A DNA stretch of 64,000 nt from an uncultured Dehalococcoidia bacterium (GTDB lineage: Bacteria; Chloroflexota; Dehalococcoidia; Lucifugimonadales; UBA3495): positions 415,416 to 479,415 of the forward strand of contig OY282494.1 in NCBI GenBank assembly GCA_958296385.1. The letters run 5' to 3'. The translations under genes and the position numbers were made by a program. Shown piece after piece: positions 20,591 through 34,211 of this stretch; positions within the stretch are counted from its first letter, which is position 1, and the number at the start of each line of letters is the position of its first letter. The notes beneath the pieces were generated by a model. It did no database searches. It was given only the letters and a program-made list of their open reading frames with translations, and was not told where the DNA came from.

Positions 20591-20805
20591 GGCAGCGTTC
20601 CGTTTTAGGCGGTTTAGTTTCCCTAATGTCATTCCGCCCCTCTCCCCCCAATGTCATTCTGAGCGCAGCGAAGAATCTCGAAAGCGTAGCAACGGCGTTA
20701 CCCTCAAAGTGTGCCCTACGTCATCGAGATTCTTCGCTGCGCTCAGAACGACATTCGGAATGGCCGGCGGTGGGCTGATTAAACCACCTAAAACGCAACG
20801 CTGCC
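20591..20805. repeat. palindromic intergenic repeat, copy C, nested inside a second outer inverted repeat
   Basis: The inner hairpin spans 20650-20753. The outer arms are GGCAGCGTTCCGTTTTAGGCGGTTTAG (20591-20617) and TTAAACCACCTAAAACGCAACGCTGCC (20779-20805), complementary at 24 of 27 positions. Confidence 0.85.
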
Positions 20806-23437: not shown

Positions 23438-24787
23438 TCACCCGGCCCCCCCGTCGTACTCCCGCACCGCCGCCTGCTGCCGCTGAAAGTTCAGATACGC
23501 CCCACGCGTCATCGCCGGACGGAATGACGACACCACTTGCCGCCCTTTCGCCCCCCCGTCGGCCAACAGGTCAATAACCGACATCGCCATTATTTTCGCC
23601 GGATTCACCACCGCCTGCTGGTAGTCGGTAATCAGATACTCGTTGCTGTGCCCCGCCCCCTGCGCCCCGCCGGTGTAAGGATGCACCGACGGCAGAATAT
23701 GGCTCAAATCCCCCATATCCGTTGACCCGCCCCGATTACGCGCTGGCGGCATCACCAGCACCCGGTTCTCGTTCAGCAGGTTCACCGAGTTTTGCCGGAA
23801 CAGATCCAGCAAGTGCTGGTCGTGGCGCATCGGCAAATAGCCGGGTATGTTAGTAATTGACACCGACGCCCCCACCGCCAGCGCCCCGGCCCGGAAGCAC
23901 CGATCCACAATCTCCGAGTTCCGCACCACCGCCTCCGGCGTCCCCGAGCGCACCCGCCATTCCAGCTTCACGTCCGACGGCACCGAGTTCACCGACTGCC
24001 CGCCCGCCGTCATTATCCCGTGTATCCGCACGGTATCCTGCTCCCGGTACAGCTCCCGGTTCGAGTTGATGGCCTGCAACGCAAAAGTCGCCGCGTTCAG
24101 CGCGTTAACCCCCAGATGCGGCGCGCTGCCGGCGTGCGCCGCCCGCCCGGTAAAGCGAACGTACTTCACGATATGCCCGTTGCTCGTGCCGCCCAGCGCA
24201 AAAGTGTGCGCCCCCATGTCGCTGGCGGTGTGGCACATCATCGCAATGTCCACGTCGTCAAACTCCCCCAGCCGAATCAGCTCCTGCTTCCCCCCCATAA
24301 ACTCAATCTGCCCGCTTTCCCGCAGCCCCAGCCGCCGCTCCACTTCAATAAACTCCTCGGCCGGCACCGCAAACGGCACAATCTCCCCGCTCAATTCCGC
24401 CAGCACCCGGGGCTGCGTCAGCCCCACCAGCGCCCCCAGCATCATCCCAATCTGGCAATGATGCCCGCAGGCGTGGGCCGCGTTGGTATCCGCCGCCGCG
24501 CTGGGATGCCCGTCCACAATCAGGCTGTCCAGCTCCCCGATGATTGCCACGCTCGGCCCCTTGCCCCCGCCCCCTTGCACCGCCCCTTTCACCCCGGTCA
24601 GCGCCAGCCCGGAGCGGTACTTGATGCCCAGCCTGGCCAGCTGCTCACCCACCACCCGCGCCGTCCGGTATTCGCTGTATCCCGGCTCCGGATGCTCCAG
24701 TATGTCCCGGGAAACCGCAATCAGTTCCTTGGCCCGGCGGTCAATTGCCTTGCAAGCGGCGGCTTTCAGTTCTGCTCGTGTTGCCAT
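23438..24787 (-). CDS. M20D-type amidohydrolase (paralog 1)
   Basis: Motifs HPEPGYSEYRTA, AHACGHHCQIGMMLGA and GRAAHAGSAPHLGVNALNA are present. The start was trimmed to ATG 24787 (MATRAELKAAACKAID). Confidence 0.8.
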   Translation of the reverse strand: MATRAELKAAACKAIDRRAKELIAVSRDILEHPEPGYSEYRTARVVGEQLARLGIKYRSGLALTGVKGAVQGGGGKGPSVAIIGELDSLIVDGHPSAAADTNAAHACGHHCQIGMMLGALVGLTQPRVLAELSGEIVPFAVPAEEFIEVERRLGLRESGQIEFMGGKQELIRLGEFDDVDIAMMCHTASDMGAHTFALGGTSNGHIVKYVRFTGRAAHAGSAPHLGVNALNAATFALQAINSNRELYREQDTVRIHGIMTAGGQSVNSVPSDVKLEWRVRSGTPEAVVRNSEIVDRCFRAGALAVGASVSITNIPGYLPMRHDQHLLDLFRQNSVNLLNENRVLVMPPARNRGGSTDMGDLSHILPSVHPYTGGAQGAGHSNEYLITDYQQAVVNPAKIMAMSVIDLLADGGAKGRQVVSSFRPAMTRGAYLNFQRQQAAVREYDGGAG

Positions 24788-24854
24788 CAGCGTAACCTCA
24801 GGGCATGGCCCCAGCGTAACCCCGGTAGTGACGTAACCCCGGTGCGATAATAAC

Positions 24855-26186
24855 TTAAACGTCGGCGTAGGTAATTTCGCTGGCCAGCCCGCGCATAAAC
24901 TCAATGTACTCGCGCGCGGTCATTTCCGCCCGGTGATTGGCAATCACCCGTCGCCCCTCGGCGGCGCCGTCCGCCAGCAGGTCAATCACCGTCGCCGCCA
25001 TCGACTTGGCGGCGGTAATCACCGCCAGCTGATAATCCTGCACCACGTAATCCGCGCCGTGTCCAATGCCCGTTGCGCCCCCCACGTAAGGATGGATAAC
25101 CGGCATCAGATAGCTAACGTCGCCCATGTCCGTGCTGCCCGTCCGGTGCTGGATGCGCGCCACGTTCTCCGGCCCCACCAGCGTATTGGCGTTGGCCTCA
25201 AAGATTTCCGCCATCCGCCCGTTCTGCATCAGCGGCAGGTAGCCGGGTATGGTCTGGATGTTCACCGTCGCCCCCATCGCCATCGCACCCGCCCGCAGCG
25301 CCCGGTCCACCTTGTGATTGGCGTCCATAATCGCGTCCAGCGTGCGCCCCCGCACAAACGTCTCCATCCGCACGTCCGCCGGCACCGCGCTAACCGCCTC
25401 GCCGCCTTTCGTGATGATGGGATGCACCCGCACCGTGTCGTTGTCCAGAAACGTCTCCCGGTTGAAGTGAATCGCCGACAGCGCCAGCGTTGCCGCGTTC
25501 AGCGCGTTGATTCCCAGATGCGGCGACCCCCCGGCGTGAGCGCCCCGCCCCACAAACTGGATTTTCTTGGCCAGCGTCCCGTTGCTGGTCCCGCTGACGC
25601 ACAGCTGCCGTTCCCCCGGCGTGCTGGTCGTATGCACCATCATTGACAGATGCACGTCGTCAAACTCGCCCAGCCGGATGAACTCCGGCTTGCCCCCCAG
25701 AAACTCAATCTTGCCCGCCCGTCGCAGCCCGTCCCGGTACTCAATCTCGATATATTCCTCCGCCGGCATCCCCATCGGCACAATCCGCCCGCTCAGGTTA
25801 GGCAGCACGTCCTTGTGCATCAGCCCCATCGTCGCCCCCAGCATCATCCCAATCTGGCAATGATGCCCGCAAGCGTGGGCCGCCCCCGTCTCCCCGTTGG
25901 CGTGCGGATGCTCGTTGACAATCAGGCTGTCCAGCTCCCCGATAATCGCCATCGTCGGCCCTTCGCTGCCCCCCAGAATCTCCCCCCGCAGCCCGGTCAT
26001 CCCGAGGCCGCTGCGAAACGGCACCCCCATCTCCGCAAACTTCTCCCCCACCAGCGCCGCCGTCTTAAACTCCCGGAACCCCGGTTCCGGATTGGCCAGA
26101 ATCTGCTTTGACAGATTAATCAGTTCGTCGGCCCGCTGGTCAATCTCCGCAAAAGCCTTGTCTTTCAATTCAACGGCAGTAGGCAT
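24855..26186 (-). CDS. M20D-type amidohydrolase (paralog 2)
   Basis: It is colinear with paralog 1 (NPEPGFREFKTA, AHACGHHCQIGMMLGA, GRGAHAGGSPHLGINALNA). Confidence 0.8.
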   Translation of the reverse strand: MPTAVELKDKAFAEIDQRADELINLSKQILANPEPGFREFKTAALVGEKFAEMGVPFRSGLGMTGLRGEILGGSEGPTMAIIGELDSLIVNEHPHANGETGAAHACGHHCQIGMMLGATMGLMHKDVLPNLSGRIVPMGMPAEEYIEIEYRDGLRRAGKIEFLGGKPEFIRLGEFDDVHLSMMVHTTSTPGERQLCVSGTSNGTLAKKIQFVGRGAHAGGSPHLGINALNAATLALSAIHFNRETFLDNDTVRVHPIITKGGEAVSAVPADVRMETFVRGRTLDAIMDANHKVDRALRAGAMAMGATVNIQTIPGYLPLMQNGRMAEIFEANANTLVGPENVARIQHRTGSTDMGDVSYLMPVIHPYVGGATGIGHGADYVVQDYQLAVITAAKSMAATVIDLLADGAAEGRRVIANHRAEMTAREYIEFMRGLASEITYADV

Positions 26187-26343
26187 CCCAAATCTCCGGC
26201 TGGACTATCGTCTGATTGATGGATCGTCTGATTGACGGCTCGTTATTTGACGGCTTGCCATCGGCTGGTTGTCAACATAACACCCCACCCAACGCCCCCC
26301 CGATGGTAGCACACCCCACCCCCCTTGCCTACCAAACCCACCC

Positions 26344-26460
26344 AATGCCATTCTGATCACCGCGCAGAACCCCAACGCCGCCGCAGCCCCCTTGCCCCCA
26401 AAGACACACCGAGGGGGTCTGGGGGAAATCATTTCCCCCAGCGTCCCCCCCTTACTCCCC
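26344..26460. repeat. variant intergenic repeat, copy D (diverged left arm plus GGGGGAAATCATTTCCCCC hairpin module)
   Basis: AATGCCATTCTGATCAC...GCAGCCCCCTTGCCCCCAAAG is followed by ACACACCGAGGGGGTCTGGGGGAAATCATTTCCCCCAGCGTC (hairpin at 26419-26441). This module is nearly identical to 38361-38405. Confidence 0.8.
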
Positions 26461-26522
26461 AAGCGCACGCCCCCCCGTCAAAATCCCCCGCCAAATCCAA
26501 AAAATCAATGACACCCCCCTAC

Positions 26523-26552
26523 TTGCCAAAACGCACATCCGTTCCCCATAAT
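26523..26552 (+). promoter_or_regulatory. candidate sigma-70-type promoter upstream of the structured element
   Basis: TTGCCA (26523-26528) is followed by an 18-nt spacer and CATAAT (26547-26552). This is a pattern match only. Confidence 0.3.
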
Positions 26553-26648
26553 AACCACATCGGGCATCTCAACAACCAATCCCCCCTCAGCCGTCCTCGC
26601 TCGAGAACATCCCTGAGGAACCGGGGCCATCACACCGCTAGCACAACC

Positions 26649-26865
26649 GCCGGAGATTCAAGTCAAAAACGGCCAGTCAGCAAAAAATCGCAATCGGCAA
26701 GGGTAGTCCCGACCCCGCTTTCACGGCGCGGGCTGCCTCCGCAGGGTATCGAGCTTCAGCCCGCGTGCTGTCCTCCCATTAGGGACAGGCCACGTAAAAT
26801 GAAGGTACAAAATAGTTGCGTACCAACCTCCGGCCGTAGGGCTGACAACGACTTGAATCTCCGGC
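26649..26865 (+). ncRNA. candidate structured RNA (or MITE-like element) closed by a 16-bp terminal helix
   Basis: GCCGGAGATTCAAGTC (26649-26664) is perfectly complementary to GACTTGAATCTCCGGC (26850-26865). A second closing helix pairs GTCAGC (26676-81) with GCTGAC (26841-46). Internal hairpins lie at about 26727-26765 (8-10 bp), 26768-26788 (CTGTCC/GGACAG) and 26804-26824 (GGTAC/GTACC). Strand is tentative: two G-T wobbles work only as + strand RNA. Confidence 0.4.
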
Positions 26866-27032
26866 AACAACACCAATCAAACCAACCGAACCCACCGCCC
26901 GATAAACGCCCGATACCAGCAGGATACCAGATGAAACCACTGCCCAACACCATCGCGCTGCGGCAATCCCGCGCGCCCCCCAACCCGCCAAACCACAACC
27001 GCGCCATCCCCGACCAACCCGGAGACGCTGCC

Positions 27033-27650
27033 ATGACTACCACCTCTCTATGCGCCAAATGCGCCCACGCCGCACACGCCCGCCGGCACTGCACGACGTG
27101 CCATCTGGCCGTCGACGCCGATGCCTACGCCGCCCTGGACGGCCTGTTTGCCGCCCTCTACGCCCTGAACCGCCCCCCGGTCAACGCCGCTATGGACAAA
27201 GCCGCCGCCGCACTGCAAAGCGCGCCCCCGCTCACCGGAGCTGCCGTTGCCGCGCTGCACGCCGCCCGTATTGACGCCAACACCATCCCCCTGGACTACC
27301 ACACTGCCCCCACTGGCGCCTGCCCGCCGCTGGAGGATGCCGGCAAGCACGTCGCCGCCGCCATGGTAGCCGCCGACTTCACCTGGCACGACTTCGAACA
27401 GGGCCCCGCCCTGATCGCCGCCGCCCGGATGCTGCTATTGGCAACGGCAGCTACCGAGCCCCTGGTATCCGCCCTGCGGGATGAGTTCTCCCGCCTGGAG
27501 TTGCTCGATCATCCCGGAGACGGCGGCTTTCCCCTGGAGGATTGTCTGGAAACGCACACTTGGGATGTTGAATTGGACGAGACCATGTTCGGCGATGGCG
27601 TCCGGTACGAAAGAGACTGCGTCGCCAATATGTACACCTGGATTTTGTAA
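27033..27650 (+). CDS. hypothetical protein with N-terminal CxxC...CxxC zinc-ribbon-like motif
   Basis: ATG 27033 follows GGAGA. The N-terminus reads MTTTSLCAKCAHAAHARRHCTTCH. The 236 codons upstream in the track ORF (26325-) run through repeats and the structured element and were rejected. Confidence 0.55.
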   Translation: MTTTSLCAKCAHAAHARRHCTTCHLAVDADAYAALDGLFAALYALNRPPVNAAMDKAAAALQSAPPLTGAAVAALHAARIDANTIPLDYHTAPTGACPPLEDAGKHVAAAMVAADFTWHDFEQGPALIAAARMLLLATAATEPLVSALRDEFSRLELLDHPGDGGFPLEDCLETHTWDVELDETMFGDGVRYERDCVANMYTWIL

Positions 27651-34114: not shown

Positions 34115-34211
34115 TGGCGGGAGTGCGAGGGAGTCGAACCCACCTACCCCGCTCGTCACGAGGCATAACGGATTTGAAGTCCGCAAGAGCCACCGGGCCC
34201 CATCCACTCCC
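34115..34211 (-). tRNA. selC: tRNA-Sec (anticodon UCA), CCA encoded
   Basis: The minus-strand sequence is GGGAGTGG-AT-GGGGCC-CGGT-GGCTCT-T-GCGGA-CTTCAAA-TCCGT-(long variable arm)-GTGGG-TTCGACT-CCCTC-GCACTCCC-G-CCA. It has an 8/5 acceptor/T architecture and a 6-bp D stem with a 4-nt loop. The anticodon loop, T loop and D loop are identical to E. coli selC as I recall it. One G-G and one T-T mismatch are noted. Confidence 0.85.

What the first reader, a model, noticed from the sequence alone, without database searches (positions are those of the whole stretch)
26649..26865. 217-nt multi-hairpin element closed by a perfect 16-bp helix: candidate novel structured RNA or MITE
GCCGGAGATTCAAGTC (26649-26664) and GACTTGAATCTCCGGC (26850-26865) are perfectly complementary. 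A second closing helix (GTCAGC 26676-81 with GCTGAC 26841-46) follows. The interior contains at least three further hairpins: GCGGGCTG/CAGCCCGC extended to about 10 bp at 26727-26765, CTGTCC/GGACAG at 26768-26788, and GGTAC/GTACC at 26804-26824. Two extension pairs are G-T, which are allowed only if the plus strand is the RNA. I could not match it to RNase P, tmRNA, SRP, 6S, or the TPP, cobalamin or c-di-AMP riboswitch signatures from memory. A candidate promoter (TTGCCA-18-CATAAT, 26523-26552) lies about 95 nt upstream. A zinc-ribbon hypothetical gene starts 168 nt downstream, so it could be a cis-regulatory leader. The alternative is a non-autonomous mobile element with 16-bp terminal inverted repeats, although I see no obvious target-site duplication.
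Basis: partly seen in the sequence, partly recalled or inferred. Interest (0 to 1): 0.6.

Follow-up and report, generated by a model that had tools for sequence, protein, structure and literature searches.

The report
Multicopy structured RNA with HEPN partner
The 217-base hairpin element is one of 72 copies of a conserved folded RNA gene that, in related bacteria, sits directly in front of a small HEPN-fold (RNase-like) protein gene; in this genome it has multiplied without the protein by riding on a small transposable element, so it looks like an uncatalogued RNA-protein module of the toxin-antitoxin kind.

Summary
The arms 26649-26664 and 26850-26865 are a perfect 16-bp inverted repeat, and GTCAGC/GCTGAC forms a second helix. 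No Rfam family matches.

- **Copy number.** The genome (3.3 Mb, uncultured Dehalococcoidia) holds 72 full-length copies, all intergenic.
- **Not a MITE bounded by the 16-bp helix.** Homology runs about 300 nt upstream and 55-130 nt downstream of the helix. The helix arm sequence occurs nowhere else in the genome.
- **Conserved RNA structure.** In 46 of 54 species of the genus, the helix changes sequence completely but stays paired: 14 of 14 pairs show double changes. Unpaired motifs are conserved, and a promoter lies upstream on the + strand.
- **Protein partner.** The RNA lies directly upstream of a 130-155-aa HEPN-fold protein gene that has no curated family. There are 20 same-strand pairs in 11 genomes. 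A further 9 of 11 protein genes checked also carry it. Only 2 of the 72 copies here keep the protein.
- **Mobility.** The repeat unit rides a different non-autonomous element. That element has about 30-bp outer inverted repeats, a 9-bp target duplication, and empty sites in at least 25 species.

Best reading: an orphan copy of an RNA partner of a HEPN protein, possibly an RNA antitoxin as in AbiF/RCd22. The function is inferred, and no RNA-seq data could be used.

The parts
26340..26408 (+). Left part of the repeat unit. CCATTCTGATCACCGCGCAGAACCCCAACGCCGCCGCAGCCCCCTTGCCCCC... is a degenerate copy of the sub-terminal block GTCATTCTGAGCGCAGCG.AGAATC.CGA found in the carrier element family. No left terminal inverted repeat is recognisable in this copy.
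   Evidence: Copy coverage rises from 1 to 13-67 here. Upstream flanks of the other copies align here. The same block lies inside the 215-bp MITE at window 20591-20805.
26409..26451 (.). Palindromic G/C hairpin (arms CTGGGGGAAAT / ATTTCCCCCAG at 26419-26441) shared by most copies, upstream of the promoter. Possibly an insulating terminator-like hairpin (inferred).
   Evidence: the repeat finder pair I2. This is the highest coverage in the genome self-comparison, 94 hits, because it matches on both strands.
26523..26552 (+). Sigma-70-type promoter-like site TTGCCA-18-CATAAT. The transcript would start near 26560, about 90 nt before the closing helix.
   Evidence: It is the only + strand promoter hit in 26150-27150 (10 of 12 matches). 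A site at the same place passes the same criteria in 24 of 72 copies. Stronger promoters (11 of 12, by eye) lie 20-30 nt before the helix in other species.
26649..26865 (+). Structured RNA core (the finding).
- P1: 26649-26664 with 26850-26865.
- P2: GUCAGC 26676-81 with GCUGAC 26841-46.
- Candidate pseudoknot: ACGGCC 26669-74 with GGCCGU 26832-37.
- Internal hairpins include the variable CUGUCC/GGACAG at 26768-88 and ACGUAA 26792-97 with UUGCGU 26816-21.
- Conserved unpaired blocks: AAUCGCAAUCGGC and CCGGCCGUAGGGCUGACAACGA.
   Evidence: sequence and fold. (72 copies). (full-length covariance-model hits in 46 of 54 genus genomes). (covariation counts).
26866..26920 (+). G-poor, ACC-rich linker ending in two CCCGATA repeats (26898-26904, 26909-26915). 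It is shared by nearly all copies and has no terminator hairpin on the + strand.
   Evidence: Alignment of the downstream tails of all 72 copies. Coverage of 49-71 copies extends to about 26918. The terminator scan finds none on +.
26921..26981 (+). Shine-Dalgarno AGGA (26921-24) plus a short ORF starting at ATG 26931: MKPLPNTIALRQSRAPP. The RAPP codons lie at 26970-81. Homology to the one sister copy ends right after RAPP. Here the frame stays open and runs in frame into the gene at 27033.
   Evidence: the sister copy c2597880 reads MKRLPNSAALRPPRAPP. Eleven other copies end in SD + MPPSxRAPP. RAPP is a published ribosome-arrest motif (PMC10951233, PMC12992588).
27033..27650 (+). Neighbouring single-copy gene: a 205-aa hypothetical protein with an N-terminal CxxC...CxxC. 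It is not part of the repeat and has its own SD (GGAG, 7 nt before the ATG).
   Evidence: Coverage is 1 in the genome self-comparison. Only sub-threshold Pfam hits were found.

Best explanation
**What it is.** The 217-nt element is a real, evolutionarily maintained structured RNA, read from the + strand from its own promoter. Its native context, seen across the genus, is a two-gene module: promoter, RNA, a 13-460-nt G-poor spacer, then a 130-155-aa all-helical HEPN-fold protein.

**Most likely role (inferred).** The RNA binds and restrains or regulates that protein, in the way an RNA antitoxin or regulator does in type III toxin-antitoxin systems. The AbiF (HEPN)/RCd22 pair is the closest precedent.

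**What happened in this genome.** The RNA gene, with its promoter but without the protein gene, became part of a 0.5-0.7-kb non-autonomous mobile unit. The unit is built on a MITE family with outer inverted repeats GGYAGCGTTYCGTTT.AGGTGGTTT and 9-bp target duplications. It was amplified to 72 intergenic copies, 70 of them orphans.

**The window copy.** It is one such orphan. It has lost recognisable outer repeats. It ends in a Shine-Dalgarno site plus a short ORF ending in RAPP.

**Status of each step.**
- Shown: copy number, unit extent, structure conservation, RNA-protein linkage, HEPN-like fold, and one complete element with a target duplication and empty sites in relatives.
- Inferred: transcription, RNA-protein binding, antitoxin-like role, and any role of the orphan copies.
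For: **Real and multi-copy.**
- 72 full-length copies in two subfamilies: 49 at 90% identity or more and 23 at about 80-86%.
- All are intergenic by a crude gene call.

**Larger unit.** Homology spans about window 26340-26918.

**Structure under selection.**
- The model R1, built only from this genome's copies, finds full-length matches of 46-71 bits in 46 of 54 genus genomes, up to 41 or more per genome.
- P1: 14 of 14 pairs show changes on both sides, with 95.9% of cells paired.
- Whole structure: 92-93% paired, against 26-41% when partners are slid. 0 of 500 shuffles reach the observed value.
- P2: 100% paired, with the outer pair GC 19 / AU 9 / GU 3 / UA 1.

**Strand.**
- Promoters lie upstream on + in four species.
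- G.U pairs number 84 against 33 A.C pairs.
- All one-sided changes in P2 and the candidate pseudoknot are wobble-preserving on +.

**Protein partner.**
- 20 RNA-then-protein same-strand pairs (gap 13-458 nt) occur in 11 genomes, with no other arrangement within 1.5 kb.
- 9 of 11 further protein genes have the RNA directly upstream when speed filters are off.
- The protein is present in 54 of 54 genus genomes, at 3-23 copies each.
- Strong protein hits and the RNA are both absent outside the genus.

**Fold.**
- AlphaFold2 with an alignment gives pLDDT 91.4 and pTM 0.86.
- The top PDB matches are HEPN proteins and HepT toxins, with TM up to 0.74/0.79.
- 8 of 43 family members weakly hit Pfam HEPN and 3 hit PaREP1.

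**Precedent.** The AbiF HEPN toxin is neutralised by the upstream ncRNA RCd22 (PMC12373285).

**Mobility.**
- Copy c1056736 is a 665-bp element with about 30-bp inverted ends and the perfect 9-bp duplication GATGACATC.
- Its joined flanks are contiguous in at least 25 other species.
- 46 of 72 copies keep the right terminal repeat.
- The same repeats bound many 200-bp MITEs and 0.5-3.6-kb cargo elements with 9-bp duplications.
Against:
- **Weak promoters here.** The promoter passes the consensus scan in only 24 of 72 copies of this genome.
- **Weak HEPN assignment.** It rests on Foldseek E-values of 0.03-1 and Pfam E-values of 1e-3 or worse. The canonical C-terminal Rx4-6H motif is not conserved. 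The conserved pair is R41-x3-H45 in helix 2, so nuclease activity is doubtful.
- **No terminator between RNA and protein gene.** Classical type III systems and AbiF have one. The RNA may therefore be only a 5' UTR.
- **No defence-system link.** There is no match to PADLOC defence models or to viral structures.
- **Helix end.** Within this genome the second pair from the outer end of the helix is C.A in 32 of the 72 copies. That would be G.U on the other strand.
- **Incomplete elements.** Only 6 of 72 copies retain a left terminal repeat, and only 1-3 have a clean duplication. No transposase for the carrier element was found. The window copy itself shows neither repeats nor a duplication.
- **Alignment bias.** Covariation was counted on a model-fitted alignment, which leans towards the structure.
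Confidence: 0.6

Rival explanations
1. The RNA is only a cis-acting 5' leader of the HEPN-fold gene, for example an autoregulatory protein-binding site or a structure controlling translation. The 70 orphan copies are functionless debris, spread because a MITE happened to capture the leader.
For: - In paired modules the gap to the ORF is as short as 13-54 nt, with no terminator.
- There is no + strand terminator after the core in the window.
- The promoter is degraded below the scan threshold in 48 of 72 copies of this genome.
- The outer ends are decayed in most copies.
Against: - The 217-nt core is the best conserved part of the unit in all 72 copies. Several 10-nt blocks are identical in 72 of 72. 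Flanks and outer repeats decay, which argues for continuing selection on the orphan RNAs.
- Both subfamilies keep the fold.
Confidence: 0.2
2. The RNA is an active part of the mobility machinery: a guide-, bridge- or ribozyme-like RNA that directs insertion of its own unit. The HEPN-fold protein would be its co-factor.
For: - The copies are numerous and no transposase was found for the unit.
- The left ends are variable while the right end is fixed.
- One hairpin is hypervariable between copies.
Against: - The one complete copy has ordinary DNA-transposon hallmarks, inverted ends and a 9-bp duplication. It shares them with many elements that carry no RNA.
- A 140-aa helical protein has no recombinase or nuclease fold suited to DNA.
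- No match between the variable hairpin and the flanks was noticed, though none was systematically sought.
Confidence: 0.07
3. One reading: the 217-mer is itself a MITE whose terminal inverted repeats are the 16-bp helix arms.
For: There are 72 dispersed copies. In each species the arms are perfect or nearly perfect inverted repeats.
Against: - Homology among copies continues about 300 nt upstream and 55-130 nt downstream of the arms.
- There is no target duplication at the arms.
- No further copy of the arm sequence exists in the genome, so there is no autonomous partner.
- Across species the arms are the least conserved sequence, while the adjacent unpaired motifs are invariant.
- The true element ends and the duplication lie elsewhere.
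Confidence: 0.03
4. The fold matters at the DNA level, as single-stranded DNA hairpins recognised by an HUH-type or integron-like recombinase, and not as RNA.
For: Both strands fold about equally well. The C.A at the second pair from the outer end would pair on the other strand.
Against: - Promoters are conserved in position on one strand in four species.
- G.U pairs outnumber A.C pairs 84 to 33 on the + strand.
- The element has a fixed orientation relative to a downstream protein gene.
- The carrier element has classical double-strand transposon ends with a 9-bp duplication.
Confidence: 0.03
5. It is a cis-regulatory leader or riboswitch for the zinc-ribbon gene at 27033.
For: It lies upstream on the same strand, 168 nt away. 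The unit's short ORF is in frame with that gene.
Against: The gene is single-copy and unrelated to the neighbours of the other 71 copies. In 34 of 72 copies the downstream gene is convergent.
Confidence: 0.02

Closest known systems
AbiF (Abi_2, HEPN) with its upstream ncRNA RCd22 / abiF RNA motif (Clostridioides difficile; PMC12373285)
   Same: A structured non-coding RNA with its own promoter lies directly upstream, on the same strand, of a HEPN-superfamily protein gene. In AbiF the RNA neutralises the toxic protein by direct binding, in cis and in trans.
   Different: - There is no sequence or model similarity. No Rfam hit was found, even at E up to 10, and no Pfam Abi_2 hit.
- The protein here is far smaller (130-155 aa) and lacks a conserved Rx4-6H motif.
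- The RNA here is one 220-nt multi-helix fold closed by a long helix, not two short abiF motifs.
- No terminator is seen between the RNA and the gene.
- Toxicity and binding are untested.
- Massive orphan amplification is not reported for AbiF.
Type III toxin-antitoxin systems (ToxIN, CptIN, TenpIN; e.g. PMC8860590)
   Same: The gene order is an RNA gene followed by the protein gene on one transcript. The logic of an RNA that holds a ribonuclease-type protein in check may also be shared.
   Different: Type III antitoxins are tandem repeats of about 36 nt, processed by a ToxN/AbiQ-fold toxin. Here the RNA is a single complex fold and the protein is HEPN-like.
Small stand-alone HEPN proteins of MNT-HEPN (HepT/MntA) modules and PaREP1 (PDB 2hsb, 1o3u, 1wol, 6m6u, 7ae6)
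   Same: The predicted fold is an up-down helical bundle of the same size. The best TM-score is 0.74/0.79, with rmsd 2.5 A over 123 columns. Weak Pfam HEPN and PaREP1 hits occur in 11 of 43 members.
   Different: - There is no MNT nucleotidyltransferase partner. The partner is an RNA.
- The catalytic Rx4-6H motif is not conserved.
- The family is confined to one genus, with 62 representative clusters among 1.8 billion proteins.
Structured multi-copy intergenic repeats of bacteria (Correia/NEMIS, ERIC, RUP, BOX) and orphan multi-copy RNA motifs such as Chloroflexi-1
   Same: Dozens of intergenic copies, strong predicted secondary structure, and possible co-transcription with neighbouring genes.
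   Different: - Those elements are bounded by their own inverted repeats or have no protein partner.
- Here the fold is internal to a larger unit and covaries across species.
- It has its own promoter and is ancestrally tied to one protein family.
- This comparison rests on my own knowledge of those families. Only the absence of an Rfam match was tested.

Membership tests
   Homology continues about 300 nt upstream and 55-130 nt downstream of the arms.
   The flanks directly outside the arms are conserved element sequence, not duplicated target. No further copy of the arm sequence exists in the genome at up to 2 mismatches other than chance-like hits.
Non-autonomous DNA transposon (the larger unit, carrier family with GGYAGCGTTYCGTTT... 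ends) | Terminal inverted repeats at both ends | tested here: inconclusive
   The feature is met in copy c1056736 (about 24 of 30 matching by eye). A right repeat is present in 46 of 72 copies, but a left repeat in only 6 of 72. The window copy has neither.
Non-autonomous DNA transposon (the larger unit, carrier family with GGYAGCGTTYCGTTT... ends) | Target-site duplication and an empty site in relatives | tested here: met
   - The 9-bp duplication GATGACATC flanks c1056736.
- Exact 9-mers also flank c41708 and c122198.
- 9-bp duplications occur at RNA-free members of the family.
- The joined flanks align end to end (777-842 bp) in at least 25 other species.
Non-autonomous DNA transposon (the larger unit, carrier family with GGYAGCGTTYCGTTT... 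ends) | A cognate transposase somewhere | tested here: not met
   The longer elements with these ends carry cargo genes, not transposases. The genome self-comparison shows no high-identity multi-copy IS. Other genomes were not searched.
Known RNA families (Rfam 15) | Match to a curated covariance model | tested here: not met
   The only gathering-score hit in the window is tRNA-Sec, elsewhere. No hit lies on 26480-26920 even at E up to 10. No tRNA or tmRNA was found.
Conserved structured RNA (generic criteria) | Base pairs kept through compensatory changes in diverged homologues | tested here: met
   38 of 51 pairs show changes on both sides. 93.5% of cells are paired, against 28-37% when partners are slid. 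0 of 500 shuffles reach the observed value. Caveat: the alignment was fitted to the model.
Conserved structured RNA (generic criteria) | A discrete transcript | not testable with these tools
Only promoter-like sites support transcription.
HEPN superfamily (partner protein) | Four-helix up-down bundle fold | tested here: met
   The model has pLDDT 91.4. The top PDB matches are HEPN proteins with TM 0.60-0.79, although E-values are only 0.03-1. Pfam HEPN and PaREP1 give sub-threshold hits in 11 of 43 members.
HEPN superfamily (partner protein) | Conserved Rx4-6H catalytic motif | tested here: not met
   The nearly invariant residues are H12, L39, R41, H45, R62 and L64. The R41/H45 spacing is Rx3H in helix 2. 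The histidine in the last helix of the query is not conserved.
Type III-like toxin-antitoxin (RNA antitoxin + protein toxin) | RNA gene immediately upstream of the protein gene on the same strand | tested here: met
   20 pairs in 11 genomes, plus 9 of 11 further genes, plus 2 pairs in the own genome.
Type III-like toxin-antitoxin (RNA antitoxin + protein toxin) | The protein is toxic and is neutralised by direct RNA binding; a terminator lies between the two genes | not testable with these tools
   This needs expression and binding assays. By eye no terminator is seen in the spacers that were read.
Cis-regulatory leader of the downstream gene at 27033 | The same element upstream of the same gene family | tested here: not met
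   The downstream genes differ at every copy. 34 of 72 are convergent.

The most novel reading that the evidence does not exclude
The RNA and the small HEPN-fold protein would form a previously unknown ribonucleoprotein module, a new RNA-antitoxin/HEPN class. Its RNA half escaped onto a MITE and was amplified to about 70 promoter-bearing copies. These orphans would be functional in either of two ways:
- As a genome-wide pool of antitoxin or decoy RNA that disarms HEPN toxins, including incoming ones.
- As mobile promoter-leader cassettes, whose 3' short ORFs ending in the ribosome-arrest motif RAPP couple translation to the expression of whatever gene lies downstream.
Probability: 0.15. Interest if true: 0.85.

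Novelty: new variant of a known kind. Interest (0 to 1): 0.7.

Why it matters
- **A new large RNA with a partner already in hand.** It is about 220 nt long, with a covarying closing helix, a second long-range helix, a possible pseudoknot and invariant unpaired motifs. Most orphan RNA motifs lack an identified protein partner. This makes the function directly testable: co-expression, toxicity rescue, binding and structure.
- **A wider RNA-plus-HEPN theme.** So far this theme is known from AbiF/RCd22 and, in elaborated form, Cas13. This module would extend it to a tiny HEPN-like protein in Dehalococcoidia (SAR202-type, apparently sponge- or marine-associated). Almost no RNA biology is known in that lineage.
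- **A structured RNA gene as transposon passenger.** A promoter-equipped RNA gene has been captured by a non-autonomous transposon and amplified 70-fold, about 1.2% of the genome. This is a prokaryotic parallel to SINE-like spread of RNA genes.
- **A practical caution.** Many scattered copies do not by themselves mean 'just a MITE'.

Tried and rejected
- **Rfam.** Searches at gathering and at E up to 10 gave nothing on the element. ARAGORN found nothing.
- **Helix arm as a transposon end.** A search for the arm sequence elsewhere in the genome found none.
- **Within-genome covariation.** It was too little to be useful: 1 compensated pair. I therefore moved to cross-species copies.
- **Partner protein families.**
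  - Pfam and NCBIfam on single proteins gave nothing.
  - The PDB search by sequence profile gave nothing significant.
  - The word-based homologue search found only 2 relatives.
  - PADLOC and the viral fold library gave nothing.
- **Exact-pattern scan of genome contigs.** It returned only 4 stretches because the pattern was too strict, but it gave record titles of relatives.
- **Short ORF MPPSxRAPP as a remnant of the HEPN gene's 5' end.** Local alignments stop before the ORF, so this is not supported.
- **Autonomous IS for the carrier element.** The longer elements with the same ends carry cargo genes, and no high-identity multi-copy IS exists in this genome.
- **First fuzzy-regex search for left terminal repeats.** It was unreliable and was replaced by blastn-short.
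- **Single-sequence AlphaFold model.** It was poor, with pLDDT 59, and was replaced by the alignment-based model.
Full report
**1. The observation**

- The sequence is as described. The repeat finder reports arms 26649-26664 and 26850-26865, 16 nt, 100% complementary, 185 nt apart.
- The + strand folds at -90.3 kcal/mol, against -67.1 +/- 4.5 for dinucleotide shuffles (z = -5.15). The reverse strand gives z = -4.83. The fold is far beyond chance, but energy does not choose the strand.
- TTGCCA-18-CATAAT at 26523-26552 is the only + strand promoter-like hit in 26150-27150.
- Rfam has no match on the element, at gathering score or at E up to 10. ARAGORN finds nothing.

**2. It is multi-copy, but the 16-bp helix is not the end of the repeat**

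- The window lies in a single-contig 3.30-Mb genome with 63.5% G+C. Earlier notes of this scan call it an uncultured marine Dehalococcoidia/SAR202-type bacterium. Records of relatives carry titles such as 'Chloroflexi bacterium SB0666_bin_1' and 'Dehalococcoidia bacterium'.
- blastn finds 72 full-length copies of the 217-mer: 49 at 90-100% identity and 23 at about 80-86%. By a crude GC3-based gene call all are intergenic. They lie in both orientations relative to their neighbours. The downstream gene is on the same strand in 38 copies and convergent in 34.
- Aligning the copies with their flanks shows that similarity does not stop at the helix arms. In window coordinates the shared unit runs from about 26340 to about 26918. 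Its ends are fuzzy and unit lengths range from 290 to 650 nt.
- The arm sequence occurs nowhere else in the genome.
Its premise, that the 16-bp arms are terminal repeats, is not.

**3. Anatomy of the unit**

From 5' to 3' the unit contains:
- A degenerate block GTCATTCTGAGCGCAGCG.AGAATC.CGA...
- A G/C palindrome GGGGGTCTGGGGGAAATCATTTCCCCCAG (window 26409-26451).
- The promoter-like site.
- A leader of about 90 nt.
- The 217-nt core.
- A G-poor, ACC-rich linker with CCCGATA repeats.
- One of several alternative 3' ends. In about 46 copies the end is ...ATGACTTGACCAAACCACCTGAAACGGAACGCTGCC. In 11 copies it is a Shine-Dalgarno site plus ATG CCA CCG TCC xxC CGC GCx CCC CC (MPPSxRAPP). In 2 copies, including the window, it is a Shine-Dalgarno site plus MK(P/R)LPN..ALR..RAPP.

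The core is the best conserved part, with several 10-nt blocks identical in all 72 copies. The promoter meets the scan's criteria in 24 of 72 copies. The majority form TTGCAA/TAAGAT misses by one match.

**4. The fold is conserved across species with full sequence turnover**

- A covariance model built only from 18 diverse copies of this genome (A1, R1) finds full-length matches of 46-71 bits in 46 of 54 genomes of the same genus.
- It finds none in 40 other genera of the order.
- In the other species the closing helix has entirely different sequences but stays paired. Examples are GACCAGGTTCCGAGCG/CGCTCGGAACCTGGTC, AGGCAGGATTTCAGATCG/CGATCTGAAATCCTGCCT and GCCAGAGGTCACCGGTCAT/ATGACCGGTGACCTCTGGC.
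- On the 32-sequence alignment all 14 P1 pairs show changes on both sides, with 95.9% of cells paired.
- The whole structure is 92-93% paired. This compares with 26-41% when the 3' partners are slid by 1-3 columns. 0 of 500 shuffles reach the observed values.
Its outer pair is GC 19, AU 9, GU 3, UA 1.
- Two invariant hexamers, ACGGCC (26669-74) and GGCCGU (26832-37), are complementary and would form a pseudoknot with that helix. Their only two changes are wobble-preserving, so this pairing is a candidate and is not shown.
- Between the helices lie invariant unpaired blocks.
- A terminal inverted repeat would be the most conserved sequence of a transposon. Here it is the least conserved, which is the signature of an RNA helix.
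- Caveat: the alignment was fitted to the model.

**5. Strand**

- Good sigma-70-type promoters lie 20-30 nt upstream of P1 on the + strand in three other species: TTGACA-17-TATACT, TTGCCA-17-TATAAT and TTGACA-17-TATTAT.
- G.U cells outnumber A.C cells 84 to 33.
- Against this, within this genome the second pair from the outer end of P1 is C.A in 32 of the 72 copies. The family helix is therefore 14 bp rather than 16 bp.

**6. A protein partner**

- In the one genome with a single RNA copy (L045), a 155-aa ORF starts 36 nt after the RNA.
- Relatives of this ORF follow 2 of the 72 copies in the own genome.
- The protein occurs in 54 of 54 genomes of the genus, at 3-23 copies each.
- Comparing the truncated hit lists gives 20 RNA-then-protein same-strand pairs (gap 13-458 nt) in 11 genomes. 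There is no other arrangement within 1.5 kb.
- Of 11 further usable protein genes without a listed RNA, 9 have a full-length model match directly upstream on the right strand once speed filters are switched off.
- The protein has no Pfam or NCBIfam family. It has only 62 representative clusters among 1.8 billion proteins.
- A profile search of 200 genomes of the class finds only weak N-terminal relatives outside the genus.
- With a 43-sequence alignment AlphaFold2 gives a confident helical bundle, with pLDDT 91.4 and pTM 0.86.
- The best PDB matches are HEPN-domain proteins (2hsb with TM 0.74/0.79, 1o3u, 1wol, 1ufb) and HepT toxins (6m6u, 7ae6). Their E-values are only 0.03-1.
- 8 of 43 members weakly hit Pfam HEPN and 3 hit PaREP1.
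- The canonical Rx4-6H motif is not conserved. The conserved residues are H12, R41, H45 and R62.
- I therefore call it HEPN-fold and leave catalysis open.

**7. How the unit moves**

- The common 3' end of the unit is one terminal repeat of a separate, abundant family of non-autonomous elements in this genome, with ends GGYAGCGTTYCGTTT.AGGTGGTTT.
- That family includes about 200-bp MITEs, one of them in the window at 20591-20805. It also includes 0.5-3.6-kb elements that carry cargo genes but no transposase. Several have 9-bp target duplications.
- Copy c1056736 is a complete 665-bp element (G000 1056419-1057083). Its layout is left repeat, sub-terminal block, promoter, RNA, linker, right repeat. 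It is flanked by the perfect 9-bp duplication GATGACATC.
- Its two flanks, joined, align end to end over 777-842 bp in at least 25 other species. The site is therefore empty there.
- Two more copies have exact 9-mers on both sides.
- Most copies are decayed. A right repeat survives in 46 of 72 and a left repeat in 6 of 72. The window copy has neither.
- In another species (L027) a small MITE of the same family sits inside the HEPN gene directly after the RNA. This suggests how RNA-only composite units arise.
- No cognate transposase was found in this genome.

**8. Interpretation**

- Shown: a conserved, promoter-preceded structured RNA that is the fixed upstream neighbour of one HEPN-fold protein family. 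In this genome it has been amplified as an orphan on a transposable carrier.
- Inferred: the RNA binds and restrains or regulates the protein. The experimentally studied AbiF (HEPN) toxin and its upstream ncRNA RCd22 behave this way, with the RNA acting in cis and in trans like a type III antitoxin (PMC12373285).
- I put about 0.35-0.4 on an antitoxin-like role and about 0.2 on a purely cis-acting leader.
- Loss of the protein gene with retention and spread of the RNA is what one would expect if the protein is costly and the RNA protective. It is also compatible with simple hitch-hiking.

**9. The short ORFs**

- Thirteen copies end in a well-spaced Shine-Dalgarno site and a short ORF whose last conserved codons spell RAPP. 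Similarity between copies stops right there.
- RAPP is a documented ribosome-arrest motif. It is under-represented in proteomes and typically sits at the C-terminal end of small regulatory peptides (PMC10951233, PMC12992588, PMC7897499).
- In this genome's crude proteome RAPP occurs 16 times against 31 expected.
- In the window the ORF (ATG 26931, RAPP 26970-81) runs in frame into the gene at 27033.
- These 13 copies descend from one or two events, and the strand is C-rich. The motif could therefore be incidental. It is recorded as a lead.

**10. Verdict**

- The feature is real and is not an ordinary MITE. It belongs to no catalogued RNA family.
- It is best filed as a new variant of the ncRNA-plus-HEPN theme, with an unusual secondary life as a transposon passenger.

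Noticed in passing
window 20591-20805: A 215-bp palindromic MITE has ends GGCAGCGTTCCGTTTTAGGCGGTTT... / ...AAACCACCTAAAACGCAACGCTGCC and the internal block GTCATTCTGAGCGCAGCGAAGAATCTCGA. It is flanked by GCCGGAGCA / GCCGGCGTA, which match at 7 of 9 positions. This is the carrier family whose ends bound complete copies of the RNA unit.
   Followed up: partly
G000 C1:358094-360853 (outside the window): A 2.76-kb element has the same terminal repeats and a perfect 9-bp duplication, GCGCCGGCC. It carries an HTH/HigA-like 342-aa gene, a RelE/HigB-like 111-aa gene and a DUF488-like 150-aa gene, and no transposase. The gene names are my reading of the sequences and were not searched. Other members carry oxidoreductase or DUF429-like cargo. 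The family therefore shuttles small gene cassettes.
   Followed up: partly
window 26921-26981 and 12 other copies of the unit: A Shine-Dalgarno site plus a short ORF ends in the ribosome-arrest motif RAPP exactly at the 3' edge of the repeat. The forms are MPPSxRAPP (11 copies) and MK.LPN..ALR..RAPP (2 copies). In the window the ORF is in frame with the gene at 27033.
   Followed up: partly
about 45 copies of the unit, e.g. G000 C1:1056419-1057083: In the common 3' end, AGGA is followed after 9 nt by ATG ACT TGA, a two-codon mini-ORF. It overlaps an alternative ORF MT(D/H/Y)(Y/H)DLTKPP.... All of this lies inside the right terminal repeat of the carrier element. Its meaning is unknown.
   Followed up: no
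L027 1260-1420 and 2044-2166 (another species of the genus): A degenerate second RNA copy lies in tandem upstream of the intact one. A 122-bp MITE of the same terminal-repeat family is inserted into the HEPN-fold gene at about codon 88. Many copies in that genome share a truncation near this point.
   Followed up: partly
L035 1842-2050 (another species of the genus): Here the RNA is followed, about 100 nt downstream, by a gene that looks to me like a HicB-type antitoxin (MVRQLTAIIEREDDMYVALCPELDIASQGYTVTEARDNLKEALELFFE...). It is not the HEPN-fold gene. The RNA unit therefore also lands next to other toxin-antitoxin genes.
   Followed up: no
G000 C1:1286852-1287540 and 1292450-1292653 (outside the window): Distant paralogues of the HEPN-fold protein (about 125-131 aa, two in tandem) have no RNA copy in front. 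They match only the N-terminal half of the family profile (E about 1e-6 to 1e-7).
   Followed up: partly
window 34119-34211 (- strand): A selenocysteine tRNA gene is present (Rfam RF01852, 66.4 bits).
   Followed up: no
window 23438-26186 (- strand): Two adjacent paralogous genes of about 440-490 aa lie directly upstream of the element. They look to me like M20-type amidohydrolase/peptidase genes. Parts of them match each other at the DNA level (coverage 2).
   Followed up: no
window 26191-26200: AATCTCCGGC is identical to the last 10 nt of the 3' helix arm. About 0.3 such 10-nt inverted matches are expected by chance in an 847-nt region, so it is probably chance.
   Followed up: no
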